Made by a program: the position numbers and the translations under genes. From IMG/VR virus record IMGVR_UViG_3300025728_000289: a DNA stretch of 54,424 bases; one strand, given 5' to 3'. The notes below the pieces were generated by a model that had not been told where the DNA came from, searched no databases, and saw nothing but the letters and a program-made list of their open reading frames with translations. Shown here piece by piece: positions 2 to 31,031 of this stretch. Source of the stretch: an uncultured virus (IMG/VR IMGVR_UViG_3300025728_000289) (taxonomy: Duplodnaviria; Heunggongvirae; Uroviricota; Caudoviricetes). How positions within the stretch are numbered: position 1 is the first letter of the stretch; each line of letters begins with the position of its first letter.

Positions 2-1156
2 TGTAGAAAAGGTATAGAAGAAGCTGATGCGCGTTCAGAGGAACTTTTGAAACAAGCGAAAGTAATCGTGGGTGTTGATGTCAACTTAAACAGCCCTGTA
101 CAACTTATGAAGATACTTGGCCTAACCACCACGGCTAAGGAGGCATTGGAAGAGAGTAGCCATCCTCTTGTATCTACAGTGCTTGAGTACCGAGCATGGC
201 AAAAAGTCAAGACAACCTACTACGAAGTGTTTTTGAATGATCGCGACGAACAGAATAGACTTCATCCAGACTTGTTCCAGATTGGAACGGTGACTGGTCG
301 GTTGTCTTGTCGGAATCCGAATCTCCAAGCACTACCACGGGCGAAGGATGACACTGATCCCTTTGCTCATATCTACCGTGTCCGTAATGTAATCGTGCCT
401 CCGGGACCAGATTATGCTCTTGTGTTTTCTGACTTATCTCAGGCCGAAATGCGGATAGCAGCCCACTATGCTAAAGAAACAGCGATGATAGACATTATTA
501 AAGCTGGAGGAGACTTGCATACCCAGACGGCTGTCGTTATGTTTGGTGACAAATGTATAGACCCTCGTACGGGTGTGCCTACAAAAGAATATCGTAACTT
601 TGCAAAAAGACTTAACTTCGGTATCATTTACGGTATGGGTGCAAAAGCCCTAGCAGGAAACTTGGGGTGCAGTATTGAGAAAGCTAAAGAACTGCTTGAC
701 CAATACCACGAAAAATTCCCAGGGTTCAAAAAGTTGTATGCAAGTGCGGAAATGCGAGCTATAGTACGTGGCTGGATTACTATGTGGTCAGGTCGTAGAC
801 GCCGTTTCAAAGGCGACAAAATTGAAATGTGGGAATGCAGAAAGGCCATGAACAATCTGATCCAAGGATCCGTATCGGAAATGATGAAACACGCGATGAT
901 CAAAGTGGACAAATTGTTCCGTGAAGAAACCGGCGACCGCTCCTATATATTCAATCAAGTGCATGATGACCTGCAAATGGCGGTTCACAAGGATGACTGG
1001 CACTTGGTCCCTATCATTCGAGACATTATGCAGGACCACCCTTGGTGCACAGTTCCTATCATCACAGATACAGAATACTCTCTTACTTCTTGGGGAGAAA
1101 AGAGCAAGTGGAAAGAGGGTATCGACCCGTGGGCAACTAAGTCCTTTGTAGTCTGA
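2..1156 (+). CDS. polA: Family A DNA polymerase, C-terminal polymerase domain (5' truncated by window edge); phage-type, candidate DpoZ-like
   Basis: Motifs TGRLSCRNPNLQ, motif A DLSQAEMR, motif B RNFAKRLNFGIIYG, motif C VHDD. Frame is open from base 2. Confidence 0.93.
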   Translation, partial: CRKGIEEADARSEELLKQAKVIVGVDVNLNSPVQLMKILGLTTTAKEALEESSHPLVSTVLEYRAWQKVKTTYYEVFLNDRDEQNRLHPDLFQIGTVTGRLSCRNPNLQALPRAKDDTDPFAHIYRVRNVIVPPGPDYALVFSDLSQAEMRIAAHYAKETAMIDIIKAGGDLHTQTAVVMFGDKCIDPRTGVPTKEYRNFAKRLNFGIIYGMGAKALAGNLGCSIEKAKELLDQYHEKFPGFKKLYASAEMRAIVRGWITMWSGRRRRFKGDKIEMWECRKAMNNLIQGSVSEMMKHAMIKVDKLFREETGDRSYIFNQVHDDLQMAVHKDDWHLVPIIRDIMQDHPWCTVPIITDTEYSLTSWGEKSKWKEGIDPWATKSFVV

Positions 1157-1195: not shown

Positions 1196-1401
1196 CAAAT
1201 CCTCTTTTGCATTTATGAACTGCAATTATTGAGTTAACTACAACCGCATGTTAGAATACATATAAGAATTAATGGTTGATTTATATAGCACCTTAGAATG
1301 ACTAACAAAATAGAACACCCATCCCATAGACTGTCTAGTTAAGATACCGTTAGCTAGGTGGTCTATTTACTTTCTATATATTCATAAAAGAGGTGAAATG
1401 T

Positions 1402-1848
1402 ATGTTGTTCATTGTTCTAGACCCTGGAAAATCTACAGGCATGACTGTTATGAAAGACGGAAAGTACATATTTGGATGTACTGTTGAGGATTATAACTGG
1501 ACTTGGCTCATGGAAAAAGTGGAAAGTCTAGCTGCGAGACACAAAAATGTGACAGTCATTACAGAGGAATTTCGCGTATACCCTGGAATGGGTGCACAAC
1601 AAGCTCTCCAACCTGCTTGGAGTGCACAAATAAATGGGATGCTAGAGTATTTTGTGTATTTGAATAGTAGAAAAGGAAAAAACTATCACTTTATAAAACA
1701 GTGGGCATCGACAGCTAAGACATATAGCAGTGATGATAAACTTAAGCAACACGGGTTATGGAAAGGCACGAAACATCAAAAAGACAGTGCACGTCACTAT
1801 ATATTCTATATTGAAAATACACGCAATAAGGAGATGAAAAGGGCATGA
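1402..1848 (+). CDS. RuvC-like Holliday junction resolvase (phage type)
   Basis: N-terminal LDPGKSTG, central EEF, C-terminal HQKDSARH. RBS GAGGTG favours ATG at 1402. Confidence 0.7.
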   Translation: MLFIVLDPGKSTGMTVMKDGKYIFGCTVEDYNWTWLMEKVESLAARHKNVTVITEEFRVYPGMGAQQALQPAWSAQINGMLEYFVYLNSRKGKNYHFIKQWASTAKTYSSDDKLKQHGLWKGTKHQKDSARHYIFYIENTRNKEMKRA

Positions 1849-2444: not shown

Positions 2445-2474
2445 TTGACTATACATACCGAACTGTGATACAAT
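2445..2474 (+). promoter_or_regulatory. Sigma-A promoter of purZ
   Basis: TTGACT-N18-TACAAT with TG extended -10. Confidence 0.7.
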
Positions 2475-2512
2475 TACAGTACAACACCAAAATTGATTTA
2501 GGAGGACTTAAT

Positions 2513-3595
2513 ATGGAAAGATCTTTAGATGTTATTCTCGACTTGTCGTTTGGTTCGTGTGGTAAAGGCCTTATCGGGGGCTATCTCGCCACTCGTAACA
2601 AGTACGACTTCGCTATAGAGAGCTATGGTGTGCAGGCTGGCCATACGGTTATTAAGGAAGATGGCACTACATACGTTGTACAACAACTCCCACAAGCACT
2701 GATCGACCCAGATGTGAAATTGTATATTGGGGCTGGAGCAGTAATCGACATTGATCAGCTCAAAAAAGAAGTGGATGAGTATCTAGGCGGCATGGAAAAA
2801 GCAAAAGGTCGTTTGTTCATTCACCCACGCGCTTCTGTAATTCAAGACCAACATAAACAGTGGGAAAGAGAAAACATTAGATCTGGTAGCACATTTAAAG
2901 GTGTTGGAGCAGCCAGTGGGTTTAAGGCCATGAGACACCCGGATCACACCCTCATTAAAGATTTACCAGAGTGGGCCGACTTTATTGCGGATACAGCTGA
3001 ACTCGCTTGTGATGCTTTAGAAGATGGCAAATCAGGCATTCTGGAAGTGGCTCAAGGATTCGAACTAGGTTTAAACCACGGGTTCCAGTATCCTAATTGT
3101 ACAAGTCGGGAATGCACACCTATGCAAGGTCTATCGGACAATGGTATTCCTCCAAAACACGTTCGCGACACATATGGTGTAATCCGGACGTACCCAATTC
3201 GTATTTCCAATGAAATGGCTACTTCCGAAGGTGGACAAGCCTACTCAGGTGATGGCGGTAAAGAAATCACCTGGGAAGAAGTAGAAGACCGGGCAGGTGC
3301 TCCACGTGGTGCATTCTCCTCAAAAGAATTAACTACAGTGACTAAAAAGCTCCGTCGTGTCTTTGAATTCGATGTGGAACGTATCAAGCGGGCTGTGAAA
3401 ATCACAGGGGTAAACAAATTGGCCGTCAACTTCATTCAGTATGTCAACTATGTTGATGCTGGCGTTACTGATTACGAAAAACTGTCTGAAAAATCAAAAG
3501 AATTTATTCGGATGATTGAGAAAGAAACAGGTGTACCAGTAGTTCTTATTGGTACCGGACCTCGTAACGACCAAGTCATCGACCTAGAAGCATAA
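2513..3595 (+). CDS. purZ: PurZ-type adenylosuccinate synthetase homologue (candidate succino-2-amino-dAMP synthase, Z-base pathway)
   Basis: FGSCGKG (Ser where PurA has catalytic Asp, GDEGKG), AGHT, GSTFKG, AQG, RTYPIRI, TTVTKKLRRVFEF, NFIQY, GTGP. 360 aa. RBS AGGAGG before ATG 2513. Confidence 0.85.
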   Translation: MERSLDVILDLSFGSCGKGLIGGYLATRNKYDFAIESYGVQAGHTVIKEDGTTYVVQQLPQALIDPDVKLYIGAGAVIDIDQLKKEVDEYLGGMEKAKGRLFIHPRASVIQDQHKQWERENIRSGSTFKGVGAASGFKAMRHPDHTLIKDLPEWADFIADTAELACDALEDGKSGILEVAQGFELGLNHGFQYPNCTSRECTPMQGLSDNGIPPKHVRDTYGVIRTYPIRISNEMATSEGGQAYSGDGGKEITWEEVEDRAGAPRGAFSSKELTTVTKKLRRVFEFDVERIKRAVKITGVNKLAVNFIQYVNYVDAGVTDYEKLSEKSKEFIRMIEKETGVPVVLIGTGPRNDQVIDLEA

Positions 3596-3603: not shown

Positions 3604-3640
3604 AAAAAGAGAGAGTTCACACATGTGACTCTCTCTTTTT
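3604..3640 (+). terminator. Intrinsic terminator after purZ
   Basis: AAAAAGAGAGAGT...ACTCTCTCTTTTT. Confidence 0.8.
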
Positions 3641-3969: not shown

Positions 3970-3979
3970 CACACACATA

Positions 3980-4016
3980 AATGAAAGGGAGTACCAAGAA
4001 GGTACTCCCTTTCATT
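3980..4016 (+). terminator. Intrinsic terminator
   Basis: 16-bp stem AATGAAAGGGAGTACC / GGTACTCCCTTTCATT. Confidence 0.75.
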
Positions 4017-4130
4017 TATGTATTTACCAAAAACATTCCGGAACAGAGAAGGAAATACATATTATTGATTCGTCTCCTGGCACATGGTAGAATGGTGTAT
4101 GTATTTTACTATGTATGTGAGGAGATAAAT

Positions 4131-6734
4131 ATGAGAGATACATCATTCAAGTTTATAGATTTGTTTGCTGGTATAGGAGGTTTTCGTACAGCTTTTGAAA
4201 GACTGGGCGGTCAATGTGTTTTTTCTTCAGAAATAAACCCTTTTGCACAACAAGCCTATAACATATTGCATGGGGAAGTACCAGCGGGAGATATACGACA
4301 AGTACAGGCAGATGATATCCCTGATTTCGATTTGCTATGCGGAGGCTTTCCTTGTTTTGCTGCAGGTGAATTGGTCACTACATCTATGGGTATGAAGCCC
4401 ATCGAAGATATAAAAAAGGGTGACTATGTGCTAACACATAAAAATCGGTTTAGAAAAGTAGTTATGCCTATGGTGAAACACAAACAAGGAATCTTCCGGT
4501 TAAGTGTTTTGGGAAGCCCGAGCACTTTTGTTACTGAAGAGCACCCATATTATGTACGTCGTTATACCAGAGTTTGGAATAATGATAAGAGGACATATGA
4601 AAGAGTGTGGGGGCCCCCTGAATGGAAAGCTGTCAAAGATTTAACCAAAGAGGATTATGTTGGGTTTGCCACAAATAAAAAGGCAGAGAACATAAAGAAC
4701 TTAACTGCTGAGCAGTGTTGGCTTTTAGGGCGATATGTCGCAGATGGGTATATCCGCAATTATGCACGAAAAGGGAGACAGAACTCACATCATCATATTG
4801 TCACCTTCTGCATTGGAAAACACAAACTTGATAATTTTCGACAACGAGTGACTGAGTATTCTCTAGGTGTGACAGAAGAAAAAACTTCATACAAATGCAG
4901 AATCATAAACGAACACTTTATGAATCTGTGTATTGAGTGTGGGCGAGGCGCGCACAATAAACAAATTCCTGGATACATCATGGATTTACCTGAAGATCTC
5001 CTCCAGCATTTTTTAGATGGGTACATATCTGGGGATGGGGATGTGAACAAAAATAACGTGATAAAAGCCACAACTGTTAGCAGACAACTAGCCTACCAAG
5101 TATCCCAGGCAGTGCAAAAAGTGTATAAAAAGCCTTGTAGCATTATCAAAGTAAAAACGGCTGATCAAAAAGTTATTGAGGGACGAGTAGTGAATCAATC
5201 TGATTACTTTCAGATACGATTCAAGACCACTCCTTCCAACCGAGATAGATCTAAATATCTTGATGATATGCTTTGGTGCCCCGTGAAAGATCTAACTTGG
5301 ATTCCTAATTATGACTCCGTAGTCCACAACTTCGAAGTTGAAGAAGACAATAGTTATGTAGTCAATAACTGTGTCGTACACAACTGTCAGGCCTTCTCCT
5401 TTGCTGGCAAGAGGCTCGGATTTGCCGATGAAACTAGGGGTACCTTGTTTTTTGAAATAGCCCGCATAGCAGAAGCTAAGAAACCGAAGTACCTATTCCT
5501 AGAGAACGTGAAAGGTCTGGTGAACCACGAAAAAGGACGTACTCTAGACACAATTGTCAGGACTCTATCGGATCTGGGATATTCTGTAGACTTTGAAGTG
5601 ATAAACTCAAAGTACTATGGCGTTCCTCAAAATAGAGAACGTATCTATATTGTAGGTGTGTTGGATGGGGAAGTAAGCCCATATGTTGTCTCAAAGAAGA
5701 AGTCCATTATATCGGCAGCAAAGAAAAGACAAAATGAGTATGGGGATATACGGTCTTTCAACTTTGCATGGCCTACAAATTCCGAGGTCACTACATCTGT
5801 ACGTGATATTATGGAAGACAATGTTGATGACATCTTCTATATGACTGAGGACAAAACTGAAAAATTGATAGATGTGTTGACAAACCGAGGGTACTTTTCT
5901 GAGGAACGTCTTGGCAGGATGGAAATGGTGGGATTGTTACATTACCGTGGCACAGATCAAACACGGCGTGTATATGATGCGAATGGGTTGGCTCCTACAT
6001 TGACGGCACATAGTGGTGGAAGTACAGAACCGAAGGTTCTATATTCAGAAGATATCATGGAGTTTTCCATGGGTGATGGCATAACCTGTTGTGTGGATGC
6101 TAGTTACTCCAAGGGGGTTTCACCCAATTGTGTAGGCAAGGGTAGGCGTACTCATATTGTGGAACCTAATAGTGCAAATCTCACACCTAAGTGGAAGATA
6201 CGTAAACTTACACCGGTGGAGTGTTTCAGACTCCAGAGCTTTCCCGAGTCCAGCATTATCAAATTAAAACAATCCGGCATCAAAAACACTCAGCTATACA
6301 GAATGGCGGGGAACTCAGTAACAGTAAATGTCATACAAAGTATTGGAACTAATATAGTCCATTTATCTAATGGGAGTTCACCTGTACAAGAGTGCCTGCC
6401 GTTAGAACCTCAGACCTCTATGACATGCGAATATGAGAAAAATGAACATGAAAGACGAGTTTCCAAGGCCCCATCTGATGTGACTGAACAATGTGGTTCA
6501 TTTACTCAACTCATGTTTAAGTATATTAAACACACTAAGATAGTGGAAAGAAAAACAACGACAGATTTATACAATGACGTCAAGAGTTTTGCAAATGAAC
6601 TAAATATTTCAGATCCTGGTTTAAGCAACCCTATATATTTTGGCACTATTATGAAGATAAAATCTGAAGAATTAGCCAATTTAGGTATACGTGTCAATAA
6701 AAGCAAGAAGCATTGGTCAATAACTCGGCCATAA
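4131..6734 (+). CDS. DNA (cytosine-5) methyltransferase, intein-containing, with long variable region and C-terminal extension
   Basis: Motif I DLFAGIGG, split motif IV GGFP|CQAFS, motif VI ENVKG, motif VIII PQNRERI, motif X MAGNSV. True start 4131 (RBS GAGGAG, promoter 4065-4093); the track start 3981 lies in a terminator. Confidence 0.92.
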   Translation: MRDTSFKFIDLFAGIGGFRTAFERLGGQCVFSSEINPFAQQAYNILHGEVPAGDIRQVQADDIPDFDLLCGGFPCFAAGELVTTSMGMKPIEDIKKGDYVLTHKNRFRKVVMPMVKHKQGIFRLSVLGSPSTFVTEEHPYYVRRYTRVWNNDKRTYERVWGPPEWKAVKDLTKEDYVGFATNKKAENIKNLTAEQCWLLGRYVADGYIRNYARKGRQNSHHHIVTFCIGKHKLDNFRQRVTEYSLGVTEEKTSYKCRIINEHFMNLCIECGRGAHNKQIPGYIMDLPEDLLQHFLDGYISGDGDVNKNNVIKATTVSRQLAYQVSQAVQKVYKKPCSIIKVKTADQKVIEGRVVNQSDYFQIRFKTTPSNRDRSKYLDDMLWCPVKDLTWIPNYDSVVHNFEVEEDNSYVVNNCVVHNCQAFSFAGKRLGFADETRGTLFFEIARIAEAKKPKYLFLENVKGLVNHEKGRTLDTIVRTLSDLGYSVDFEVINSKYYGVPQNRERIYIVGVLDGEVSPYVVSKKKSIISAAKKRQNEYGDIRSFNFAWPTNSEVTTSVRDIMEDNVDDIFYMTEDKTEKLIDVLTNRGYFSEERLGRMEMVGLLHYRGTDQTRRVYDANGLAPTLTAHSGGSTEPKVLYSEDIMEFSMGDGITCCVDASYSKGVSPNCVGKGRRTHIVEPNSANLTPKWKIRKLTPVECFRLQSFPESSIIKLKQSGIKNTQLYRMAGNSVTVNVIQSIGTNIVHLSNGSSPVQECLPLEPQTSMTCEYEKNEHERRVSKAPSDVTEQCGSFTQLMFKYIKHTKIVERKTTTDLYNDVKSFANELNISDPGLSNPIYFGTIMKIKSEELANLGIRVNKSKKHWSITRP
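4353..5384 (+). mobile_element. Intein (344 aa) with LAGLIDADG homing endonuclease
   Basis: Starts CFAAGELV, block B TEEHPYY, LLGRYVADG and FLDGYISGDG motifs, ends VVHN followed by Cys+1. Confidence 0.92.
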
Positions 6735-8536: not shown

Positions 8537-9166
8537 GTGGATATATTGCAACCTGGACTATTTGTTGTGTTTGAGGGACCAGAAGGAGCCTCGAAAGGAA
8601 CACAATCCCAACTATTTGCGGATTATTTACAGGATAAAAAAATCCCATACATACACACACGAGAGCCAGATGGCCCTATTCGTAGTGTTTTGCTTGATCC
8701 TGCAAATACGGGAATGATACACGATGACACAGAAGTGTTGTTGTACGCTGCTTCACGCGTTAACAAATTTTTAACCGAAATAAAACCTGCGCTTGAAGAA
8801 GGAAAAGTTGTGGTATGTGATCGTTACCTTGAGTCCTCTCTCGCATATCAGGGTTATGCTGGTGGAGTGGATCTAGCGAAGATACTGAGCATCCATGACG
8901 CTTTTATAAATGATAGCAGGGTGACTCTGTTGTTTGACATTTCTTATGAAACAAGCAGGAAAAGGTTGGGGACACGGGGAGAAGCGCTAGATAGGCTCGA
9001 GATGAAGTCAGAAGTATATCACAGAAAAGTTATTGATGGTTATAGGAAACTAGCCAAAGATTACTCTCACATTAAGCGTATAGATGCGAATCAAACAATT
9101 GATCAAGTACATTCAGAAGTGTTGAGTTTATTGACTCCACTACTGGAAGAAAGAGGGATGTTATGA
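8537..9166 (+). CDS. tmk: Thymidylate kinase-like dNMP kinase
   Basis: FEGPEGASKGTQ P-loop (variant), TREP, CDRY..SSLAYQG, IDANQ. Confidence 0.88.
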   Translation: MDILQPGLFVVFEGPEGASKGTQSQLFADYLQDKKIPYIHTREPDGPIRSVLLDPANTGMIHDDTEVLLYAASRVNKFLTEIKPALEEGKVVVCDRYLESSLAYQGYAGGVDLAKILSIHDAFINDSRVTLLFDISYETSRKRLGTRGEALDRLEMKSEVYHRKVIDGYRKLAKDYSHIKRIDANQTIDQVHSEVLSLLTPLLEERGML

Positions 9167-9678
9167 GTAAACGAGTAATTATATCTCTCATTTCTCCACC
9201 TGGAGGAGGGAAAACAACTATACTTAAGCATTTGTCTGAGCATCACCAATTGCCCATACTGAGTTCGGGAGATATAGCGAGGCAAATGCAGAGGGATACA
9301 GAAACGAATTTCCTAATACAAGGGGGATTTGCTCCTGAAGAAGAGATGAGACGCAGACTCTTAGAATCCATTGAGACATTATTTGTCTCTAGCAACGTGA
9401 TACTGGCTGATGGGTTCCCGAGATTCGTTGACCAGCTGAATTGGTTGGAAAACTCTCTAGATGGCGTGGATATTGTATTGTACCACTTGGATGTGCCATT
9501 GGACAAATGTAGAGACAGACTGCAGTCTCGCAATCGTTCTGATGACAATGAAGAAACTATAGAGGCAAGATTCAAACAATATACTGAACAAACAGAGCCA
9601 ATTGTCACTTCGCGACATCTGCGACGGTACAATTATGATTTTGTGACTCAAGTAATTCTTGCGGCAAAGAAAAATTAG
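9163..9678 (+). CDS. Adenylate kinase-like NMP kinase (short, no LID domain)
   Basis: SPPGGGKTT, SSGDIAR, DGFPR, RSDDNEE. Confidence 0.82.
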   Translation: MSKRVIISLISPPGGGKTTILKHLSEHHQLPILSSGDIARQMQRDTETNFLIQGGFAPEEEMRRRLLESIETLFVSSNVILADGFPRFVDQLNWLENSLDGVDIVLYHLDVPLDKCRDRLQSRNRSDDNEETIEARFKQYTEQTEPIVTSRHLRRYNYDFVTQVILAAKKN

Positions 9679-11629: not shown

Positions 11630-12490
11630 ATGTTGCGTATCAATCCAAGAGTAATACCAAGGATAATAGCTTGGCTATTGCTAGTATTTATTGCAGGTGC
11701 TCTGTTGATTAATATTCTAGGCGGGAAGGAACAGGTGACTGAAGAGTCCCAGTCCAATCTCGATGATCAGATCTCCAGCATCGCGGTAGCTTTTACCAAG
11801 CAATGGATGACTCTAGAAGAGAAAGAAACACCTGATGTATTCCGGAAGAGAATCGAACCTTATGTAACACCTGCCCTACTAACTAATCAAGCCGGTAGGA
11901 CGAATGTTACTAATGTAACGAGTCAACGGGTCATTGACGCTTGGATGAAGTCTTACACGAAACTCGATGCTACTCATTTCACAGCAGATGTAGTGGTTTA
12001 TGTATCCTCTAACAACATTAAGGCCTATAAAGTGGTAAATGTCCCACTGGCACTTAATGCAGAAACCAATCAGCTTGTCGTGAATGAAAGACCGAGTTTT
12101 TCACCAGTGATAGCCACTAGTGATGTGGGAAGCATGGACTTTGGTAAACAAGTGAATGTAGCTAACACAGATCAATTAAGAGTAACACTTTCCAATTTCT
12201 TCCAGAAGTATCTTGGTTCTTCAGATCCTGCTGAGTTATCGAACTTCCTAATGGATAGTTCCAAAAACACCATTATGCCGAAAGGTGGATTGGTGGAATT
12301 TAAAAACATAGTAACCATGCAGACATTCTTAATGGGGTCTGCAACCGAAGAATCAACTGTTAAAATGTATTTGGCTAGAGTAACGGTAGCTACACAAGAT
12401 GTTTTCTCTAACAGTGTGGTGGAGTCCGACTACAGCTTGATGATACAAGAACAAGGTGATAAATACCTGATACAGAAAATATCGCCTTAA
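11630..12490 (+). CDS. Conjugal transfer protein, TcpC/VirB8-like
   Basis: Single N-terminal TM, about 290 aa, AVAFTKQW and NFFQKY patterns, position before the VirB2/TcpE/VirB4 genes. Confidence 0.7.
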   Translation: MLRINPRVIPRIIAWLLLVFIAGALLINILGGKEQVTEESQSNLDDQISSIAVAFTKQWMTLEEKETPDVFRKRIEPYVTPALLTNQAGRTNVTNVTSQRVIDAWMKSYTKLDATHFTADVVVYVSSNNIKAYKVVNVPLALNAETNQLVVNERPSFSPVIATSDVGSMDFGKQVNVANTDQLRVTLSNFFQKYLGSSDPAELSNFLMDSSKNTIMPKGGLVEFKNIVTMQTFLMGSATEESTVKMYLARVTVATQDVFSNSVVESDYSLMIQEQGDKYLIQKISP

Positions 12491-12511
12491 CTAAACCTAG
12501 GAGGAATTATT

Positions 12512-12880
12512 ATGACTACTCAAAAAATGTTGAAAATTGTAATGATTGCCCTGATGGCGCTTGTTATTGGACTCTCCTTTGCGGCACCTAATGTGGCACT
12601 TGCAGATGGTTTTACAGATGCTCCGACTAGCTTGACAGACACTAGCGGAACAGGAACAGACAGTCCGGTAGGTAAACTTGGTGGATGGGTAGCTCAACAA
12701 TTGATGTACCTCTACGCTTTGATGGTAGCTGTAGTTTCCATCGTCTTTGTTGTTAAACACGAATACAGCAAACTGGTGGCGTTCTTGGTAATTGCGATCA
12801 TCGTTGCTATCCCTATCTTCGCACCAAACGTAATCCCATCCATCGCTGAGTCCATCTCCAAAGCGATCACAGGAAAATAA
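12512..12880 (+). CDS. VirB2/TcpD-like conjugative pilin-type membrane protein
   Basis: Signal peptide (ALA|D) plus two TM helices, strong RBS, T4SS context. Confidence 0.6.
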   Translation: MTTQKMLKIVMIALMALVIGLSFAAPNVALADGFTDAPTSLTDTSGTGTDSPVGKLGGWVAQQLMYLYALMVAVVSIVFVVKHEYSKLVAFLVIAIIVAIPIFAPNVIPSIAESISKAITGK

Positions 12881-12952
12881 GTTTAGCATTAATTGGCAAC
12901 CTTCGGGTTGCCAATCTGCTATCTACATAACGTGCTTGAGGAGGTAAATAGT

Positions 12953-13696
12953 GTGTCGAACAAGAGAGTTGGACCTTTCAGTAGTTACAAAAGCTTATTC
13001 AAAATACAACACGTTATTTACAAATTAGGAAACATAAGACTCTGGGGTTTTGGGGTCAGTTTTGACCAGTTGATCACTGGTGCTGTCGTAGCAGCCTTTT
13101 TGATGGCTCTCTATGCTATATTCCCTTTGCTAAATTACTTTTTCATTAATAAGTGGATAGTTATAGTTGTCGCTTTTTTAGCTTCCATGTGGGCGAGCGC
13201 AAGGTACGAATTAGGCGGTAAGTCAATCCTCATGTGGACAATAGGAATAATTCTTTGGTCTGTAAGAGGTAAATACACCGCGCGTGGTCGTACTATTAAA
13301 AAGCCACGGTACAAGAAAGAAGGAATATACTTTTATGCGTCATCCCGTCGTGTAGAAACAACGAGCACAGGTGCTCAAAGGTGTGTAACACCTGCAGTGA
13401 TTAGCTACGATCAGTTAGAGCATATAAAGGTTTCAGGTGCACACAAACTTCGCATAGATCCAAGCGGCAAGCATATAAAAATAACTCCCCTACGACAGGC
13501 TAAGAAAAGTGCCATAGTGGATGGAGAGATGATCCTCTTACCTAAGAAAAAGATAAGCTCTTTGACAACCCCTGATGTTCCGATCATCATAGATAACACA
13601 CTCATTATTTCCCAACCAGCATCCTCTCCAAAAAAGGTAGTGAAACACAAACCAAAATATGGGATGGCGCTGTTTGTGGAAGAAAACAATTCGTAA
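12953..13696 (+). CDS. TcpE/VirB3-like conjugal transfer membrane protein
   Basis: SYKSLFKIQHVIYKLG N-terminal pattern, two TMs, GGKS, directly upstream of VirB4. Confidence 0.7.
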   Translation: MSNKRVGPFSSYKSLFKIQHVIYKLGNIRLWGFGVSFDQLITGAVVAAFLMALYAIFPLLNYFFINKWIVIVVAFLASMWASARYELGGKSILMWTIGIILWSVRGKYTARGRTIKKPRYKKEGIYFYASSRRVETTSTGAQRCVTPAVISYDQLEHIKVSGAHKLRIDPSGKHIKITPLRQAKKSAIVDGEMILLPKKKISSLTTPDVPIIIDNTLIISQPASSPKKVVKHKPKYGMALFVEENNS

Positions 13697-13724
13697 ACAA
13701 TCTAATTTAGGCGGTGAATGTACA

Positions 13725-16199
13725 ATGAAGTTTCCAATAATCTTCTGGCAACAAAACATTATATTTGACAACAAGCGAAGAGCTTTCGCTGTCTATAAAT
13801 TGCCACTGATAAATTATGCTCTGTTATCTATAAACGATAAGATTGGCGCGATGTACAATCTGAGAGAATTAGTGTACAATGCGCAAGGAGAATACCATAT
13901 TTTGTCTCTTTGTCGTGATTTTGATATCGGAACATATGAGGAACAGCTTAGCAGCTTGCAAAGGGATGATCTCAAGACTACAGATCAATCTCTACCTCAG
14001 GAATTCAGAGACCATGTAGTCGCAACATATAATGGACTGTCAAATAGGAAGCCGTGGAATCGGCACCTATACATCTTAAAGCAAATACCGCTTAAAAACG
14101 TGTTGTTGCAAGTCAAAAGCTTGCATCACCTAAAATCCAACGTGCGAGGATTGGCTAGTTCCCTAATAGATATGTTCGTGCCGTCTGAGCCAACCATCCC
14201 AGAGCAATTGTTAGAAGCAGCTATGATGCAGGAAGATACAATCGCACAAGATATTCGGAATGGTATGGGGGGACAACGGGCTGATTCTAAAGATATTGAG
14301 TGGATGATCAGACATAACCTTTTCCGCTCACTTGGTGAACCTGAAGTTACTTCGGATTGGGCTCCTGCTTCGGTTGTAGAAGTAGCAGGTACTGGTAAAA
14401 AACTCATTCCTATGAAAAATGAGATAGTTTCCCACATAGATGACACCTTCATGTATGAAGGATTAGATCATGTGAAGATAGATCATGTGGATGGGGAACA
14501 CAAAGGTAAAGAATCCTACCAAGCCTTTTTAGCTCTCACGAATTATCCCGAACATTTACGTTTTCCAGGGTTAGAGTTCTACCAATGGTTGGACGAATTC
14601 TCTTTCCCAGTTGACATCAGTATTAGGCTGAATAGTTATGAAAGCAAACATGCACAAATGAAATTGTCAGGAAAGATGAAAGAGTTGCAAGATCAAAAAG
14701 AACAACACGCCAACTCTACGACAGGTGTACCCCTACATATTCATGAGAATGAGTATAAAGGTAAAGACTTGGAAGGCAAAATTAAAAGTGGAATGCCATT
14801 ACTGGATGTGACAACGGTCTTTTGTATAGCAGCATCAGATAAAGAGACCCTGGAAAAGCGTGTAGATGAAGTAATGGGATGGTATCGTCCAAGACAGTTC
14901 AAATTGGTACGGACACCTGGAGATCAGAAAAAGTTCTTTTCCACCTTTATACCGACATACGATGTGAAATTGAAAGAGCACACTGTGGCCATGGATCCTG
15001 AATTCTTCGCTTCAGGCATGATGAACGCATCTAAACAAATTGGTGATCCGAAAGGATTCTACTTGGGGGATAATGTCAGTGGCTCAATGGCTCCTGTACT
15101 CATGCACCCTCTACGAGGGCCAAGATTGCTCAATAGATCTGCGGCTCTAGGCATATTAGGTACACTTGGAGGCGGTAAGTCAGTAACTAGGAAGTATATC
15201 TTGTATGCGGCAATGACTATATGGGGAGCTAAGGTCATTTCGATTGACCCCAAAAATGAGGATTTCTGTTTCTCCCTCATACCCGAAATAGCGAAAAACA
15301 TGAAACAAGTAGACCTTGGTCCAGGATCAAGCATCACTATTAATCCATTTCACATAAGTCCTGTGGAAGCAACCTCGAGATCGATAGTCACAGACTTGCT
15401 GTTCATGCTTTTAAATGCCGAGAGTGACGACAAAGAAGTACGACAAATGGCTATACACAAAGCACTTGGGTATGTAATGGAAAAAACACGATCTGAGAGA
15501 CATATGGATGCTGTAATTGAAGCACTAACGCGAGTGAACTCAGAAGAAGGCCTAGATACGGGGATAAGGGATGAAGCCAATAGATGTAAGTTGTTGCTGG
15601 AATCCTTCAAAGAACTGAATTATTCTAGTCTGTTGTTCTCCAAAGAGAGTAATATTGATGCCTCTGCTCAACTGACAGTATTCAACTTCGCAGGTCTTCC
15701 ATTGCCAGCAGACAAAAATTCAAAAATGTCAAATTCCGAAAAATTTGGTGCTGCTATCCTCTACCTAGTAACATCGTTCTCTCGAGAAGTGCTGATGTCC
15801 AAAGAATACAGAAGTCTGTTGAAAATTCTGTCGATTGACGAAGCTTGGAAAATGATGATGACTCCAGAGGGAATCCGATTGATCACAGAGATTATACGTA
15901 TGGGTCGGTCGATGGGTATTATGCCTATCATTGCAACTCAGAATGCCAATGACCTAAGCGGAACAGATATTCGAAACAATCTAGGAATGATTATGATGTT
16001 CCGTAATCCTGACAAAACGGAAATAGAGCAGTGTCTTGAAATGATCGGACTAGATAAAGAAGACGAGCACTTAAAAGAACGTATACCAAACTTCAAATCT
16101 GGTCAATGCATATTCCGAGATATAGAGGGACGTATAGGAGAGATCCAAGTACGACCTCGGCCTGGCAGATTGTTGGATGTATTTAATACATCTGTGTGA
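13725..16199 (+). CDS. virB4: VirB4-like conjugation ATPase (TcpF/ConE type)
   Basis: Walker A GTLGGGKS, IDPKNE, Walker B IDEAW, RMGRS, TQN, GQCIFRDIEGRIG. Confidence 0.9.
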   Translation: MKFPIIFWQQNIIFDNKRRAFAVYKLPLINYALLSINDKIGAMYNLRELVYNAQGEYHILSLCRDFDIGTYEEQLSSLQRDDLKTTDQSLPQEFRDHVVATYNGLSNRKPWNRHLYILKQIPLKNVLLQVKSLHHLKSNVRGLASSLIDMFVPSEPTIPEQLLEAAMMQEDTIAQDIRNGMGGQRADSKDIEWMIRHNLFRSLGEPEVTSDWAPASVVEVAGTGKKLIPMKNEIVSHIDDTFMYEGLDHVKIDHVDGEHKGKESYQAFLALTNYPEHLRFPGLEFYQWLDEFSFPVDISIRLNSYESKHAQMKLSGKMKELQDQKEQHANSTTGVPLHIHENEYKGKDLEGKIKSGMPLLDVTTVFCIAASDKETLEKRVDEVMGWYRPRQFKLVRTPGDQKKFFSTFIPTYDVKLKEHTVAMDPEFFASGMMNASKQIGDPKGFYLGDNVSGSMAPVLMHPLRGPRLLNRSAALGILGTLGGGKSVTRKYILYAAMTIWGAKVISIDPKNEDFCFSLIPEIAKNMKQVDLGPGSSITINPFHISPVEATSRSIVTDLLFMLLNAESDDKEVRQMAIHKALGYVMEKTRSERHMDAVIEALTRVNSEEGLDTGIRDEANRCKLLLESFKELNYSSLLFSKESNIDASAQLTVFNFAGLPLPADKNSKMSNSEKFGAAILYLVTSFSREVLMSKEYRSLLKILSIDEAWKMMMTPEGIRLITEIIRMGRSMGIMPIIATQNANDLSGTDIRNNLGMIMMFRNPDKTEIEQCLEMIGLDKEDEHLKERIPNFKSGQCIFRDIEGRIGEIQVRPRPGRLLDVFNTSV

Positions 16200-16224
16200 T
16201 TTAATTAACTTGGAGGTGAAAAAC

Positions 16225-19200
16225 TTGGACAGTCTTAGAAAGCATAAGAAGGCCACAGCGGCCTTCTTGACCTTCATACTCTTGATCACTTTTCTTATCT
16301 TCCCGCCCAATGCAAAAGCAGCAGAAGATAAGAGTAAGGCAAATGGTGAAAACACCACATCCAGTGTTTTCTGGTCTTCAAAAGATATGTTGGGATCTGT
16401 ACCTCCCAACACATTGATATTACATGAACAATATCCTAATACCTTCTCAAGATACAGTTTGGATGCACCCCTCAATCTCAAAGTATATGACAAGACTCCG
16501 TGGTGGAAACCCAATGTAGTTAAACGGGTGGAAGATGCTGCGAACACTTGGTCTCTGACTAGAATACTCACAGTTATCGCGGATTTTGGCTTTAGTTTGG
16601 TCAAGCTCATGACGACAATCTCCATCTATGTGATTCAGATTTCAATGGGGGCACAGTGGTCTAGTGCGCTATTTTCCCTCTTTGGGGCGATAGCAAAGGT
16701 CATAGGTGTCACGCTCGTGACTAAGAATCTATTTTACTTAGCGATGATCTGTTTAGGTGGTTACTTAGTATTCCAAGGTCTAATCAAGAGAAAACTTGGT
16801 ACAACATTAAGTGAGACAGCACTAAGCATAGCTTTACTGGCATTCACCATAATATTTATCACTAACCCAGGAAAAGTCATGGGTGGTGTAAACTCAGGTA
16901 CCGATCTCATAGGAACTTGGATATTGCAAATAGCTGTTTCTCAAGATAGTACTGAGAATATCAATAGTGCTATAAAAGATGACAACTATGTGACAAATAA
17001 TAACATTGACAACCAAGTTACTGCCAGCACCAGTTTGTCTGATCTGAAAAATGCCGCTATAGTGCAAATAACTAATAAATTGTGGGCGCTTCAAGTACGT
17101 GCGCCATGGGATATACTACAGTTTGGTCAACTCGATGTAAATGTCAATGACCCACAAAAGATACGTGAAGATGGTGGAGTAAAAATACATGAGTATGAAA
17201 TCGATGCAATACTGAAAATCCTAGAAAATAACTCTGTTGAAATTGGTGACGGTGTATCTTCAGATAAACCAGATGCGCAGAAACTGAAAGAAAAAGGTAT
17301 AGCGGCTGGAGAAAGTTGGGGTAATGCTATACTGGGCCTGAGTGCAGGAGAAGGTGAATTGCGTTCCATCCTAGTCAGTGTGTTAGGCAATAAAGGAACT
17401 GGCGAAGGTAAAGGAGAAGCAGTCTCGATGCATAATGGCGCTGTAGAAGCACTAAATGACGGAGGAACAAAGATATTCGTAGTATTGATACTGCTCATAA
17501 CTACAGCACTAACTACATTCTTCATTTGTACAATCGCTCTAGGATTGTTCTTAGCACAGTTGATCGTATTGATAGCAATGGTTGTGGGACCTTTTGTCTT
17601 GATGTTGTCTGCACTGCCACAGTTTGGGCACAGATACATCAAAAACTGGGGGCTAATTACACTAGGCGCTTTCGGAACCAAGATTATATACTTTACTCTA
17701 ATGGCAATAATGTTCTTGCTAATTTCCACACTTATGACTCTAGCTTTCGACATAAACACACTGGGGTTGGATGAGCAAACAAAGAGCCAGCTTAACATGT
17801 TTTCTCCTGATGGCACAACATCCTTACTACTTGTCCAAGTTCTTGTCATACTTGTCATGTATGGTCTATCCGTGTTCAGGAAAAAGATGTTCCAAAAGAA
17901 CACTTCCGGCACATTTGGCGTAGCGGGTGCACTCATACACAACACAGCAAGTGGCGGAAACTGGGGCCAAAGCATGAGTGTAGTACGAGAATCCATGCAA
18001 GGGCAGTCATATGGACAATATGTCGTTGGTAGTAGAGAAAACCGTAAGTTTAATAAAGATATGGGATTCAATAACAATCGCCAATTAAACAAAGGAAATG
18101 ATGCTGATTCACGTAGAGATGATGAAAACACATATGGATCCTCTGCTGATGAGAAACAAGGAACAGGAAATGAATCTTTGCAGAATAATGGAGAGAATGT
18201 GCAACAACTGGGACAAGGCGAAGGTAATCCCGACTACACAGATGAGAACGGCGCAGATGCTCCAGGTGCAGGGGGTACATCACCTAACAATAAGGACACT
18301 GATGACTATGAATTTAACAACGGAGCCAATGCTAGTGAAGGTTCTGGGTCACAGAAAGAGAATAGGCTGAACTGCCCTATCAACGGAGCCACATGTAGTA
18401 ATGAATCTGTTGCCTATGGCAGTGGTAGTTCAATGTGTTCTGTAACCGGCAAAGTTTGCCCATACAGAAATATGGCAGAAACTGAGCACTACAGTCAAAT
18501 GATGCAACTGCGACGTCAACGAAATGCTAGCAATACAACCGACTCAGTAGCAGCAAGTAACGGGCCGAGGAGGAACGCTGGAAGCAGTACGGAAGGTACA
18601 AATACACCAACAAACTCTGGAGAAACTCAGTACCCCAATAACACTCGCATGCGGTCCGTACAAGAGAACGGAGAAGGAACTCAACAACCGAACAACACTC
18701 GTGTACGATCTGTACAGGATGGGGATACAGGTATTGACGGATCTGGACGTGGCGTGGTAATATCCGAGGGTACAGTTAATGGGGTTAATATTGTTGGTTC
18801 ACGTAGGAACACGTATAGTGATGAAGATGATCATGATTTCGATGACTCCCGTTCCTCAGATGAATTCCTGAGTTCCCGTGGAAGAAGTCATAATAGCATA
18901 TCCATAACCGGTGGCAATGTGAATGCAGAGAACATTTTTGTTGCAGATCAAGCTACCGTACACCAAGATGGATCCGTTTCTGCTAGTCCGAATAGACGAG
19001 ATTATACAGGTAATGACGAGGTCGCCGCTACACGCGAATCCGCAAAACCTCAGTCGCCAGCTCGTGATCAGGATAAACAAAATACATCCAAGAAGGCAAA
19101 AGAAAACACAACTGACAAGTCAGCAAACAAAAAACCTGCGGGAGGGAATACAGAACCTCCAAAACCACCTGTACAGCGTAGTAGCAACAAAACGGAAGAT

Positions 19201-19380: not shown

Positions 19381-19441
19381 TAACTGACGTGGGGGAAGGG
19401 GCGTATGTGTCCCTTCCCCTCATTTATAGGGAGGGATATGC

Positions 19442-22800: not shown

Positions 22801-22828
22801 ATAAATAGCATTGAGGAAGGTGTTATAT

Positions 22829-25147: not shown

Positions 25148-25169
25148 TGTCTGGTAGGGAGGAAACACA

Positions 25170-28805: not shown

Positions 28806-28820
28806 GCCTTTGAGGAGGCA

Positions 28821-29732: not shown

Positions 29733-29741
29733 TGGGTCTAC

Positions 29742-29807
29742 ATTGTAATTATTGATGTATGTAGTACATCATGTTATAATGTTAGTATAACTGGAATTTT
29801 ACTGGCA
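29742..29807 (+). promoter_or_regulatory. Internal promoter before tadC; copy 2 of the shared regulatory block
   Basis: TTGATG-N17-TATAAT (29752-29780); homology to 10761-10827. Confidence 0.65.
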
Positions 29808-29836
29808 TAAATAAGAAGATGTCTCAGTAACAAAAG

Positions 29837-30679: not shown

Positions 30680-30692
30680 GAGGAAATAAAAG

Positions 30693-30977: not shown

Positions 30978-31031
30978 AACGACATAGGCCCCCTTCGTAG
31001 GGGGCTTATCTCTTACACGGGGTGGCAAATT

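What the first reader, a model, noticed from the sequence alone, without database searches (positions are those of the whole stretch)
2513..3595. PurZ (Z-base, 2-aminoadenine synthesis) gene on a conjugative element with no visible virion genes
Seen: the PurA catalytic Asp (GDEGKG) is Ser15 (FGSCGKG), with RTYPIRI and NFIQY. The gene has its own promoter and terminator. Known (from recalled sequences): Asp-to-Ser, PIR and N-F-x-Q/N in place of PurA TKLD mark PurZ of phages such as S-2L and phiVC8, which convert dGMP toward dZTP. The TTVTKKLRR loop looks more like PurZ0. QAGH (normally NAGH) and EVAQG (normally EGxQG) are atypical. Inference: characterised PurZ genes are in lytic phages, but here the gene lies about 8 kb from a T4SS plus Tad operon. 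This suggests a conjugative plasmid or phage-plasmid that makes Z, or a related modified purine, possibly to evade restriction on transfer.
Basis: partly seen in the sequence, partly recalled or inferred. Interest (0 to 1): 0.92.

Follow-up and report, generated by a model that had tools for sequence, protein, structure and literature searches.

The report
PurZ gene on giant T4SS-bearing element
A real gene for the enzyme that starts synthesis of the DNA base 2-aminoadenine (Z), so far known from small phages, sits with helper genes on a very large uncultured soil-bacterial mobile element that also carries a full DNA-transfer machine, but whether that element is a plasmid or a giant phage could not be settled.

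Summary
ORF 2513-3595 is a real, intact PurZ-type enzyme. It has Ser15 where PurA has its catalytic Asp, and N-F-I-Q where PurA has TKLD. It falls on the phiVC8/S-2L PurZ side of a 100/99-supported split, not with PurZ0. Around it lie a phage-type replication module with its own family A polymerase, Tmk, an Adk-like kinase, an HD 5'-deoxynucleotidase-like gene, and a DmtZ-DutZ fusion that keeps all five residues named for DmtZ. That fusion is reported so far only from PurZ0 phages. An ICEBs1/Tn916-type T4SS gene set starts 8 kb downstream, followed by a Tad-like pilus operon. Composition is uniform across the blocks and no att-like repeats flank them. The window's own contig is 239 kb, and only 62 kb of it could be read. 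That part holds no convincing virion gene, but also no relaxase or coupling protein. The choice between "conjugative plasmid" and "giant phage or phage-plasmid" therefore stays open. Z in the DNA is untested.

The parts
2445..2474 (+). sigma-70-like promoter candidate (TTGACT, 18 nt, TACAAT, TG before the second hexamer)
   Evidence: 10 of 12 matches, but such sites are not enriched in the region (9 found, 8.5 expected)
2513..3595 (+). purZ: PurZ-type succino-amino-deoxyadenylate synthase candidate, 360 aa, with RBS AGGAGG at 2500-2505
3604..3640 (+). hairpin terminator followed by a U-rich tail
   Evidence: -20.5 kcal/mol, z -6.36
2..1156 (+). C-terminal part of a family A DNA polymerase. The full gene is 748 aa with a 3'-5' exonuclease domain, at L002 6398-8644.
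1393..1848 (+). RuvC-like resolvase candidate
   Evidence: phrog_1981 1e-14; phrog_1770 Holliday junction resolvase 5e-4
3981..6734 (+). C5 cytosine DNA methyltransferase interrupted by an intein with a LAGLIDADG domain
   Evidence: PF00145 1.5e-83 in two stretches, plus Hint_2, Intein_splicing and LAGLIDADG_3 at residues 124-468
8537..9166 (+). thymidylate kinase
   Evidence: PF02223 2.5e-38
9163..9678 (+). adenylate-kinase-like NMP kinase, a candidate dZMP/dAMP kinase
   Evidence: 37% identical to the Adk of PurZ-bearing Bacillus phage vB_BpsS-140
9692..10693 (+). DmtZ-DutZ-like fusion (NDT-family domain plus dUTPase-fold domain). The ORF as listed starts at TTG 9659.
   Evidence: Tyr, Asp, Pro, Asn and Glu of Ghobes DmtZ (Y6, D12, P57, N77, E103) are all conserved.
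11630..21436 (+). ICEBs1/Tn916/pCW3-type T4SS channel genes: TcpC/ConB-like 11630-12490, small ORF 12512-12880, TcpE/ConD-like 12893-13696, VirB4/ConE-like 13659-16199, CD3337/EF1877 (ConG/TcpH-like) 16177-19380, and SLT+M23 hydrolase (CwlT-like) 19442-21436
22811..31574 (+). Tad-like pilus operon: MinD/ParA-type (TadZ-like) 22811-25147, CpaF-type ATPase with a 780-aa N-terminal extension 25170-28805, two T2SSF (TadB/C-like) genes 28821-29732 and 29837-30679, small pilin-like ORF 30693-30977, and a related 180-aa ORF 31032-31574
32206..33024 (+). Mrr-type (type IV) restriction endonuclease domain protein
   Evidence: PF04471 6.9e-28
43693..44430 (-). HD-domain YfbR/Lin2634-like 5'-deoxynucleotidase, a possible dA-nucleotide clearing enzyme. 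It is not DatZ by sequence.
50560..51117 (-). RNase T/DnaQ-like exonuclease domain protein
   Evidence: PF00929 3e-9
51667..53976 (+). 769-aa protein with weak primase-like matches
   Evidence: phrog_16345 6e-4, phrog_1139 1.4e-3

Best explanation
ORF 2513-3595 encodes a PurZ-family enzyme. It most likely condenses dGMP with aspartate, using ATP or dATP, to give dSMP, the precursor of dZMP. It is one part of a dispersed Z-DNA toolkit on one large mobile element (at least 239 kb), probably of rhizosphere Paenibacillaceae-like Bacillota.

Inferred pathway:
- The DmtZ domain destroys dAMP and salvages Z base into dZMP.
- PurZ makes dSMP.
- A host PurB makes dZMP (none is encoded in the part seen).
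- The Adk-like kinase and a host NDP kinase raise it to dZTP.
- The element's own exonuclease-proficient family A polymerase copies the element with Z in place of A.
- The HD 5'-deoxynucleotidase-like protein may help drain dA nucleotides.

The same element carries a conserved ICEBs1/Tn916-type T4SS gene set and a Tad-like pilus operon. What is shown: gene content, motifs, phylogeny and physical linkage. What is inferred: substrates, Z in the DNA and any role in transfer. Whether the element is a virus or a plasmid is left open.
For: PurZ identity:
- The best solved relatives are phiVC8 PurZ (6FM1/6FKO/6TNH, E 5e-45), then P. horikoshii PurA, S-2L PurZ 7ODX and PurZ0 7VF6. Bacterial PurA scores 1e-24 or worse.
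- phrog_1211, '2-aminooxy adenylosuccinate synthetase', matches at 5.9e-66.
- Ser15 lies in the Asp13 column, and NFIQ lies where S-2L N305/F306/Q308 bind the adenine of (d)ATP (passages of PMC8342488).
- In the careful tree of 53 rows, a 100/99 split puts the query family with phiVC8, SH-Ab 15497, Bm1 and vB_BpsS-140, apart from PurA and PurZ0.
- An AU test rejects a clade of the family with PurZ0 (p 0.029).
- The model has pLDDT 91.4. TM by query is 0.80-0.86 to P. horikoshii PurA and to PurZ structures.

Toolkit:
- The DmtZ-DutZ fusion aligns over both domains with the biochemically studied Wayne protein (27% identity, E 3e-28).
- All five residues named for Ghobes DmtZ are conserved (PMC12884076 section 23).
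- 110 phage records cover at least 80% of the fusion, and the listed ones are PurZ0-type Arthrobacter and Streptomyces phages.
- The Adk-like kinase is 37% identical to that of vB_BpsS-140, which also has purA-like and dut genes.
- The polymerase carries an exonuclease domain and follows Cas4-like exonuclease, Sak4, DUF669, MoxR-type ATPase and DUF2201 genes.

One element:
- Three assemblies agree across purZ and the T4SS genes: the 239 kb contig, the 146 kb JGI contig, and a 34 kb Logan contig with 0 differences over window 1-20000.
- GC3 is 0.384-0.396 in all four gene blocks and RSCU correlations are 0.76-0.89.
- No att-like direct repeats flank the T4SS/Tad block.
- VirB4-like homologues at 71-77% identity sit on contigs of 31,038, 65,597, 175,240 and 303,462 bases. 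These are the same lengths as contigs that hold PurZ homologues.
Against: - NCBIfam's PurZ model scores 222 bits, under its 300-bit cut-off, and ties with the archaeal-type PurA model (223.6 bits).
- The fold alone does not separate PurA from PurZ. The top structural match is P. horikoshii PurA.
- N38 of PurA is Gln here (QAGH), a change seen only in this family among the rows aligned. Its effect is unknown.
- No DatZ, MazZ, DUF550 or DUF5664 was found. The HD protein matches YfbR/Lin2634, and DatZ is not among its hits.
- The polymerase is not close to known DpoZ. It is 27% identical to Wayne's, its best solved match is Klenow, and no phage polymerase exceeds 31%.
- Continuous dATP depletion is reported as toxic to E. 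coli (PMC8342488 passages). This sits badly with a resident plasmid.
- Linkage in relatives rests on equal contig lengths, not on seeing the contigs.
- No chemistry was measured.
Confidence: 0.75

Rival explanations
1. The element is a conjugative, non-viral megaplasmid or ICE-like element. It makes Z-DNA or a Z-containing transferred strand and moves through its own T4SS, escaping restriction in recipients.
For: - The T4SS channel gene set runs in ICEBs1 order: TcpC, small ORF, TcpE, VirB4, CD3337/EF1877, SLT+M23. A Tad-like operon with pilin-like ORFs follows.
- There is no convincing capsid, portal, terminase or tail match in 56 ORFs over 62 kb.
- Neither PurZ, VirB4 nor the polymerase has a close relative in the IMG/VR collection held here, although another JGI contig with a distant PurZ is in both collections.
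- Plasmid-like cargo is present: TelA, signal peptidase I, a response regulator and Mrr.
Against: - No relaxase, coupling protein, plasmid replication initiator or partition gene was seen in the window.
- The replication and recombination genes give strong phage-family matches.
- There is no relative in 72,556 plasmid records above 35.5% for PurZ or about 28% for VirB4, and none in 185,579 species genomes.
- A resident replicon that depletes dATP should harm its host.
- About 177 kb of the contig was not seen.
Confidence: 0.35
2. The element is a giant (jumbo) phage or phage-plasmid whose virion genes lie outside the part seen. PurZ serves a viral Z-genome as in known phages, and the T4SS and Tad genes are unusual cargo.
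For: - All characterised PurZ, DmtZ and DutZ enzymes come from phages (PMC12884076 sections 4, 24, 25).
- The exonuclease, Sak4, DUF669, MoxR-type ATPase, DUF2201, PolA and RuvC-like module matches PHROG families at 1e-14 to 1e-121.
- A core gene is interrupted by an intein.
- The family is absent from sequenced genomes and plasmids.
- A CpaF homologue exists in the 274 kb Microcystis phage MaAM05.
- Contigs of the family reach 303 kb, and possibly 456 kb.
Against: - There is no virion gene in 62 kb.
- The phage collection gave only 4 records with a VirB4-like match. Two cover at least 80% of the query, at 26% identity, and one of these (Streptococcus phage IPP61) annotates the match as a conjugative transposon protein.
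- The window has no tRNA.
- The element is not in the IMG/VR copy held here.
Confidence: 0.4
3. The protein is a PurA-like enzyme with another role, for example nucleotide-pool manipulation for defence or a small-molecule pathway, and the element's DNA is ordinary.
For: - Ser-type PurA-like genes also occur on Agrobacterium and Burkholderia plasmids. There they are 537-571 aa proteins with an N-terminal P-loop domain, next to UvrD-like, PD-(D/E)XK and transposase genes.
- The protein is below NCBIfam's PurZ cut-off.
- The QAGH change is unexplained.
Against: - Those plasmid proteins branch outside the PurZ-side clade.
- The gene here sits in a replication module with its own polymerase and with a DmtZ-DutZ fusion. 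The only described role of that fusion is Z-DNA synthesis.
Confidence: 0.1
4. The juxtaposition of purZ and the T4SS genes is an assembly chimera of a phage and a plasmid.
For: This is a metagenome assembly, and the second sample gave only short pieces with no bridging contig.
Against: - Three assemblies of the source sample agree.
- Composition is uniform.
- Nucleotide and replication genes lie on both sides of the T4SS/Tad block.
- Relatives at 71-78% identity have both genes on contigs of equal length, one of only 31 kb.
Confidence: 0.03

Closest known systems
PurZ (DgsS) of Vibrio phage phiVC8 and cyanophage S-2L (PDB 6FM1, 6FKO, 6TNH, 7ODX)
   Same: Ser replaces the catalytic Asp. TTVTKK(L/V)RR is shared. 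An N-F-x-Q/N motif stands where PurA has TKLD. It is the short archaeal-type PurA architecture, and it falls on the same side of the 100/99 split.
   Different: Only 36.5% identity to phiVC8. It has QAGH instead of NAGH. No datZ or mazZ lies nearby. The carrier is at least 239 kb, against about 40 kb for those phages.
PurA-like enzyme of Bacillus phage vB_BpsS-140 (MH884512), the closest cultured relative
   Same: 41.3% identity, the EVAQG motif, a Bacillota host, and co-occurrence with adk and dut genes.
   Different: That phage is an ordinary 55 kb siphovirus with tail and lysis genes and no T4SS. Its dut is not fused to an NDT domain. I saw no Z chemistry for it.
PurZ0 toolkit of actinophages (Arthrobacter phage Wayne, Gordonia phage Ghobes; PMC12884076)
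   Same: A DmtZ-DutZ fusion architecture with conserved catalytic residues, and a family A polymerase next to purZ.
   Different: The synthetase here is not PurZ0. It lies in a different clade, the AU test gives p 0.029, and Gln stands where PurZ0 keeps the TKLD Asp. The paper reports dutZ and dmtZ as the PurZ0-genome toolkit and DatZ plus MazZ/DUF550 for PurZ genomes, so this pairing is a mix.
ICEBs1 / Tn916 / pCW3 (Tcp) conjugation systems of Bacillota
   Same: TcpC, TcpE, a VirB4-type AAA_10 ATPase, a CD3337/EF1877 membrane protein and an SLT+M23 hydrolase occur in the same order. The ICEBs1 gene order is recalled, not from a call.
   Different: VirB4 is at most about 28% identical to plasmid homologues. 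No coupling protein or relaxase lies in the window. The set is joined to a Tad-like operon and to a phage-type replication module.

Membership tests
PurZ (succino-amino-deoxyadenylate synthase) | Ser in place of the catalytic Asp13 of PurA. PMC12884076 section 24 reports Ser in 100% of 147 phage PurZ-group sequences. | tested here: met
   Ser15 in FGSCGKG aligns with the Asp of GDEGKG. It is near-invariant in 49 relatives.
PurZ (succino-amino-deoxyadenylate synthase) | Falls in the PurZ clade when PurA is the outgroup | tested here: met
   A 100/99 split puts it with phiVC8, SH-Ab 15497 and Bm1. The quick tree gives 99.
PurZ (succino-amino-deoxyadenylate synthase) | Adenine-recognising N-F-x-Q/N in place of the GTP-recognising TKLD (S-2L N305, F306, Q308; phiVC8 N297) | tested here: met
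   N306-F307-I308-Q309 (residue roles from PMC8342488 passages).
PurZ (succino-amino-deoxyadenylate synthase) | Score above the curated cut-off of NCBIfam NF038379 | tested here: not met
   222.1 bits against a cut-off of 300.
PurZ (succino-amino-deoxyadenylate synthase) | Makes dSMP from dGMP, Asp and ATP/dATP, and the carrier DNA holds Z | not testable with these tools
   Needs an enzyme assay and LC-MS of the DNA.
PurZ0 | Membership of the PurZ0 clade and retention of the Asp of TKLD | tested here: not met
   PurZ0 rows form their own 100/100 clade. The AU test rejects joining the family to them (p 0.029). PurZ0 rows have FAD, MLD or MVD where the query has FIQ.
Z-cluster of PurZ phages (datZ, mazZ/DUF550) | DatZ dATP triphosphohydrolase and a MazG-type or DUF550 dGTP hydrolase near purZ | tested here: not met
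   No MazG, DUF550 or DUF5664 match among 56 ORFs. The HD protein matches phrog_7076 at 2e-13, but its best solved relatives are Lin2634 and YfbR, and DatZ is not listed.
DmtZ-DutZ fusion | An N-terminal NDT-family domain with Tyr6, Asp12, Pro57, Asn77 and Glu103 (Ghobes numbering), fused to a dUTPase-fold domain | tested here: met
   All five are conserved in alignment A2. The NDT Pfam matches are weak (PF15891 6e-4, below its cut-off). dUTPase matches at 4e-22. E is 3e-28 to Wayne gp52 over both domains.
DpoZ (Z-selective family A polymerase) | Membership of the DpoZ-1 or DpoZ-2 clade | tested here: inconclusive
   27% identity to Wayne's polymerase. The best solved match is Klenow, and no chain named DpoZ is among the 60 listed. 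No phage match exceeds 31%. No tree was built.
Conjugative T4SS of Bacillota (ICEBs1/Tn916/Tcp type) | Channel genes: TcpC/ConB, TcpE/ConD, VirB4/ConE, ConG/TcpH-type membrane protein and a cell-wall hydrolase | tested here: met
   PF12642 5e-10, PF12648 1e-9, PF12846 2e-53, and SLT plus M23. NF046089 matches at 2.6e-21 but is below its cut-off (76 against 120 bits).
Conjugative T4SS of Bacillota (ICEBs1/Tn916/Tcp type) | Coupling protein and relaxase | tested here: not met
   Neither was found in the 49 window ORFs or the 7 upstream ORFs. The rest of the contig was not seen.
Tailed phage (Caudoviricetes) | Major capsid protein, portal and large terminase | tested here: inconclusive
   None were found in 62 kb. 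The only hits in structural categories fall on shared enzyme domains: P-loop ATPase, M23/SLT and DUF2201. About 177 kb of the contig could not be read.

The most novel reading that the evidence does not exclude
This would be a non-viral element spread by T4SS: a conjugative megaplasmid of soil Bacillota. It would replicate, or at least transfer, its DNA with 2-aminoadenine in place of adenine, using its own polymerase and a PurZ plus DmtZ-DutZ toolkit. That would be the first Z-genome outside viruses, and the first case of whole-base substitution used to protect conjugative DNA.
Probability: 0.3. Interest if true: 0.95.

Novelty: new variant of a known kind. Interest (0 to 1): 0.75.

Why it matters
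Natural Z-DNA is described only from small tailed phages of Pseudomonadota, Cyanobacteriota and Actinomycetota (PMC12884076 introduction). Here the toolkit sits in a lineage of elements of 239 to at least 303 kb, probably of Bacillota. It combines a PurZ-type synthetase with the DmtZ-DutZ helper that the paper ties to PurZ0 genomes. It has a polymerase unlike either DpoZ group, and it is linked to a complete-looking conjugation channel and a pilus operon. If the element is a plasmid, base substitution is not a virus-only strategy. If it is a giant phage, it is a phage with a conjugation-type secretion system. Either result is new. Both are directly testable, because the source habitat (rhizosphere and root metagenomes) is accessible.

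Tried and rejected
- **Whole genome.** None is held. The 146 kb JGI contig cannot be searched as a record, so the rest of the replicon could not be checked for capsid or terminase genes.
- **Nucleotide searches.** Window 1-12000 found nothing in phages or plasmids.
- **Species genomes.** Two scans of 185,579 genomes found no relative. The second used only two peptide patterns.
- **IMG/VR scans.** Scans with VirB4 and the polymerase found nothing. The scan with PurZ found one relative at 36%.
- **pXO16.** I considered it as a possible relative. Passages of the review PMC9673590 gave no shared feature beyond size and a novel T4SS, so I did not pursue it.
- **ESM Atlas.** Look-ups of the unknown proteins at 45044-46237 and 47662-48798 gave no usable hit. 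The Atlas models were poor (pTM 0.22 and 0.36).
- **Relaxed scans of unknown ORFs.** Pfam and PHROG scans at E up to 1, on 21 proteins each (unknown ORFs and a few domain fragments), gave only noise.
- **tRNA and Rfam.** No matches.
- **Second sample.** Run X2 gave 36 short pieces over 27 of 30 bins of window 1-20000, at 90-100% likeness. None bridges purZ to the T4SS genes, and uncovered bins mean nothing.
- **Earlier notes.** Look-ups for this genome and for look-alike stretches were empty.
- **Literature.** Searches for 'PurZ' with 'plasmid', 'PurZ0', '2-aminoadenine' with 'prophage' and 'PurZ', and 'PurZ' with 'jumbo' found only engineered plasmids and no natural plasmid-borne or jumbo-phage PurZ. 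The same holds for passages of bioRxiv 10.1101/2025.10.22.683976. Supplements of the papers were not opened. Subscription papers, including the 2021 Science papers, were not available.
Full report
**The gene.** The ORF from ATG 2513 to the stop at 3595 gives a 360-aa protein. AGGAGG lies 7 nt upstream of the ATG. A longer reading from GTG 2465 exists. The six close relatives are 332-361 aa and align from the same Met, so ATG 2513 is the likely start. A promoter-like site, TTGACT-18-TACAAT, lies at 2445-2474, but such sites are no more frequent here than in shuffles (9 found, 8.5 expected). The hairpin at 3604-3640 is strong (-20.5 kcal/mol, z -6.4).

**What the protein is.**
- Against solved structures, the best sequence matches are the phiVC8 enzyme (6FM1, 6FKO, 6TNH; E 5e-45). 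They are followed by Pyrococcus horikoshii PurA (9e-43), S-2L PurZ (7ODX; 2.5e-37) and PurZ0 (7VF6; 3e-31). Bacterial and eukaryotic PurA score 1e-24 or worse.
- PHROGs gives one family, phrog_1211 '2-aminooxy adenylosuccinate synthetase', at 5.9e-66.
- In an 18-row alignment, Ser15 stands in the column of the PurA catalytic Asp. The rows read GDEGKG in three PurA, GSTGKG in phiVC8-type PurZ, GSEAKG in PurZ0 and GSCGKG here.
- N306-F307-I308-Q309 stands where PurA has TKLD. Passages of PMC8342488 assign S-2L S23 to guanine specificity. They assign N305, F306 and Q308 (N297 in phiVC8) to binding the adenine of ATP or dATP.
- PurZ0 rows keep an Asp at the TKLD position (FAD, MLD, MVD) and the query does not.
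- TTVTKKLRR is essentially the phiVC8 sequence (TTVTKKVRR), so it does not point to PurZ0.
- QAGH in place of NAGH is confined to this 7-member family among the rows aligned. EVAQG is shared with Bacillus phage vB_BpsS-140.

**Phylogeny.**
- The first tree had 54 rows: 15 named references, the query, and 38 of the 119 other listed homologues (the first 10, then every fourth). This quick tree put the query in a 44-row clade with phiVC8, SH-Ab 15497, Bm1 and vB_BpsS-140 (support 99). That clade is apart from a PurZ0 clade (support 100) and from PurA.
- I then dropped the very long MaF61 row and ran the careful search on 53 rows. A split with support 100/99 separates the PurZ-side clade from PurA, the Asp-keeping Rhizobium plasmid gene, the 537-571 aa plasmid proteins and PurZ0. 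The query and six relatives form a 100/100 clade on a long stem (1.2 changes per column).
- Order within the PurZ-side clade is poorly resolved.
Long branches are in play, so this is moderate evidence.

**Results against.** NCBIfam's PurZ model scores 222 bits, under its 300-bit cut-off. It ties with the archaeal-type PurA model at 223.6 bits, under that model's 368-bit cut-off. A confident model (pLDDT 91.4, pTM 0.91) matches P. horikoshii PurA best (TM by query 0.86) and the PurZ structures at 0.80-0.81. The fold therefore does not discriminate between them.

**Helper genes.**
- ORF 9659-10693, with a probable start at ATG 9692, has a dUTPase domain at residues 201-325 (4e-22). Its first 200 residues give weak NDT-family matches (PF15891 6e-4, PF05014 8e-3, both under their cut-offs).
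- It aligns over both domains with Arthrobacter phage Wayne gp52 (27% identity, E 3e-28). [quoted passage not shown]
- The five residues the paper names for Ghobes DmtZ (Tyr6, Asp12, Pro57, Asn77, Glu103; section 23) are all conserved here.
- 110 phage records cover at least 80% of this protein. The listed ones are Arthrobacter and Streptomyces phages that also carry PurA-like genes.
- The paper reports dutZ in all 98 PurZ0 genomes, and reports DatZ with MazZ or DUF550 for PurZ genomes. A PurZ-side synthetase paired with DmtZ-DutZ is therefore a mix it does not describe.
- One sentence of the paper says PurZ0 and PurZ prefer ATP and GTP 'respectively'. Its own introduction says PurZ uses ATP. 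From recall, PurZ0 is the GTP user, which fits the retained Asp.
- Tmk (2.5e-38) and an Adk-like kinase lie next to the fusion. The kinase is 37% identical to the Adk of vB_BpsS-140, an ordinary 55 kb siphovirus that also has purA-like and dut genes.
- An HD protein at 43693-44430 (minus strand) matches phrog_7076 'dATP triphosphohydrolase' at 2e-13. Its best solved relatives are Lin2634 (2.7e-36) and the 5'-deoxynucleotidase YfbR, and DatZ is not among the hits.
- No MazG, DUF550, DUF5664 or purB gene was found in the part seen.

**Replication module.**
- The window begins inside a family A polymerase. An identical copy on a 146 kb JGI contig (L002) gave 7.5 kb more upstream sequence.
- That stretch holds a PD-(D/E)XK exonuclease (phrog_1218 4e-54), Sak4 (3e-55), a DUF669 protein, a MoxR-type ATPase (1.5e-63) and DUF2201 (3.8e-74). 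It also holds the full 748-aa polymerase with a 3'-5' exonuclease domain (phrog_17 1e-120).
- A RuvC-like gene follows.
- The polymerase is not close to any known one. Its best solved match is Klenow (2.9e-52), it is 27% identical to Wayne's polymerase, and no phage record exceeds 31%.

**The transfer genes.**
- From 11630 the genes are TcpC-like, a small ORF, TcpE-like, a VirB4-type AAA_10 ATPase (2.4e-53), a CD3337/EF1877 'mobilome membrane protein' (2.6e-21, under its cut-off) and an SLT+M23 hydrolase. By recall, this is the order of conB-conC-conD-conE-conG-cwlT in ICEBs1.
- Next come a protein with a MinD/ParA-type C-terminus, a 1211-aa protein with a CpaF-type ATPase at residues 785-1204, and two T2SSF proteins.
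- Two ORFs follow whose N-termini share 'EKGGI(E/D)xYI' ahead of a hydrophobic helix. By recall this resembles Flp-type pilins.
- No relaxase, coupling protein, integrase or prepilin peptidase was found in the window.

**Are purZ and the T4SS genes on one element?**
- The 239,444-base contig, the 146 kb JGI contig and a 34 kb Logan contig (0 differences over window 1-20000) agree. All may come from one sample.
- GC3 is 0.384-0.396 in the four gene blocks, RSCU correlations are 0.76-0.89, and tetranucleotide correlations are 0.84-0.89.
- No direct repeats flank the T4SS/Tad block.
- Nucleotide and replication genes lie on both sides of that block.
- PurZ homologues at 75-85% identity and VirB4-like homologues at 71-77% identity sit on contigs of identical lengths: 31,038, 65,597, 175,240 and 303,462 bases. 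I infer they are the same contigs, but I did not see them.
- A PurZ homologue at 78% identity lies on a 456 kb contig filed under the rotifer Adineta ricciae. No VirB4-like homologue with that contig length was listed.
- A root metagenome from another study holds fragments at 90-100% likeness along the first 20 kb.

**What kind of element?** This stays open.
- For a plasmid: the T4SS and Tad genes, the lack of virion matches in 56 ORFs, the plasmid-like cargo, and absence from the IMG/VR copy held here.
- For a phage: every characterised PurZ, DmtZ and DutZ is viral. The replication module is phage-type, and the methyltransferase carries an intein. The family has no close match (none over 36% for PurZ) in 72,556 plasmids, and the scans of 185,579 species genomes found none. 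dATP depletion is reported as toxic to E. coli.
- Hits in structural PHROG categories did occur. They fall on a P-loop, on the M23/SLT domains and on DUF2201, so they are explained by shared enzyme domains.
- The named proteins closest to the element's signal peptidase are from Paenibacillus, Fontibacillus and Cohnella (44-51% identity). This suggests a Paenibacillaceae-like host.

**Verdict.** The context is unusual and appears conserved. The claim that this is a conjugative plasmid is possible but not shown.

Noticed in passing
window 3981-6734: The C5 cytosine DNA methyltransferase is split by an intein with a LAGLIDADG homing-endonuclease domain (residues about 124-468), between its N-terminal motif and the rest of the enzyme.
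   Followed up: partly
L016 5458-7071; L017 5437-7152: Agrobacterium rubi and Burkholderia thailandensis plasmids carry 537-571 aa proteins in which an N-terminal P-loop domain is fused to a Ser-type (GSEGKG) PurA-like domain. They lie next to UvrD-like, PD-(D/E)XK, transposase and integrase genes, and they branch outside the PurZ-side clade.
   Followed up: partly
L018 298-1305: A Rhizobium leguminosarum plasmid has a short PurA-like gene that keeps the Asp (GDEAKG). It sits between folE and purB.
   Followed up: no
homologues (e.g. P0014, 510 aa): Many metagenomic Ser-type PurZ homologues at 42-46% identity are fused to an N-terminal NUDIX domain (PF00293).
   Followed up: no
P0005: A 78%-identical PurZ homologue is filed in NCBI under the rotifer Adineta ricciae, on a 456 kb contig. 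This probably reflects bacterial or mobile-element DNA in that assembly.
   Followed up: no
window 54301-54327 and 54396-54422: Two perfect copies of a 27-nt sequence lie 95 nt apart at the window's end. Each contains the palindrome TGGTGACAA..TTGTCACCA and looks operator-like or iteron-like.
   Followed up: no
window 23526-23927: Overlapping repeats with 12-, 18- and 30-nt spacing lie inside the N-terminal half of the TadZ-like ORF. The 18-28 kb region also has a high AT skew (0.19-0.24).
   Followed up: no
window 32206-33024: An Mrr-type restriction endonuclease domain protein (Mrr family enzymes are known, from recall, to cut modified DNA) lies just after the Tad-like operon. This is notable on an element that may itself carry modified DNA.
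   Followed up: no
window 40750-40814 and 46617-46681: A 65-nt stretch is repeated at 75% identity upstream of two unknown genes. It may be a shared regulatory region.
   Followed up: no
PMC12884076 section 24: The paper states that PurZ0 and PurZ prefer ATP and GTP 'respectively', which conflicts with its own introduction (PurZ uses ATP). The order is probably swapped.
   Followed up: partly
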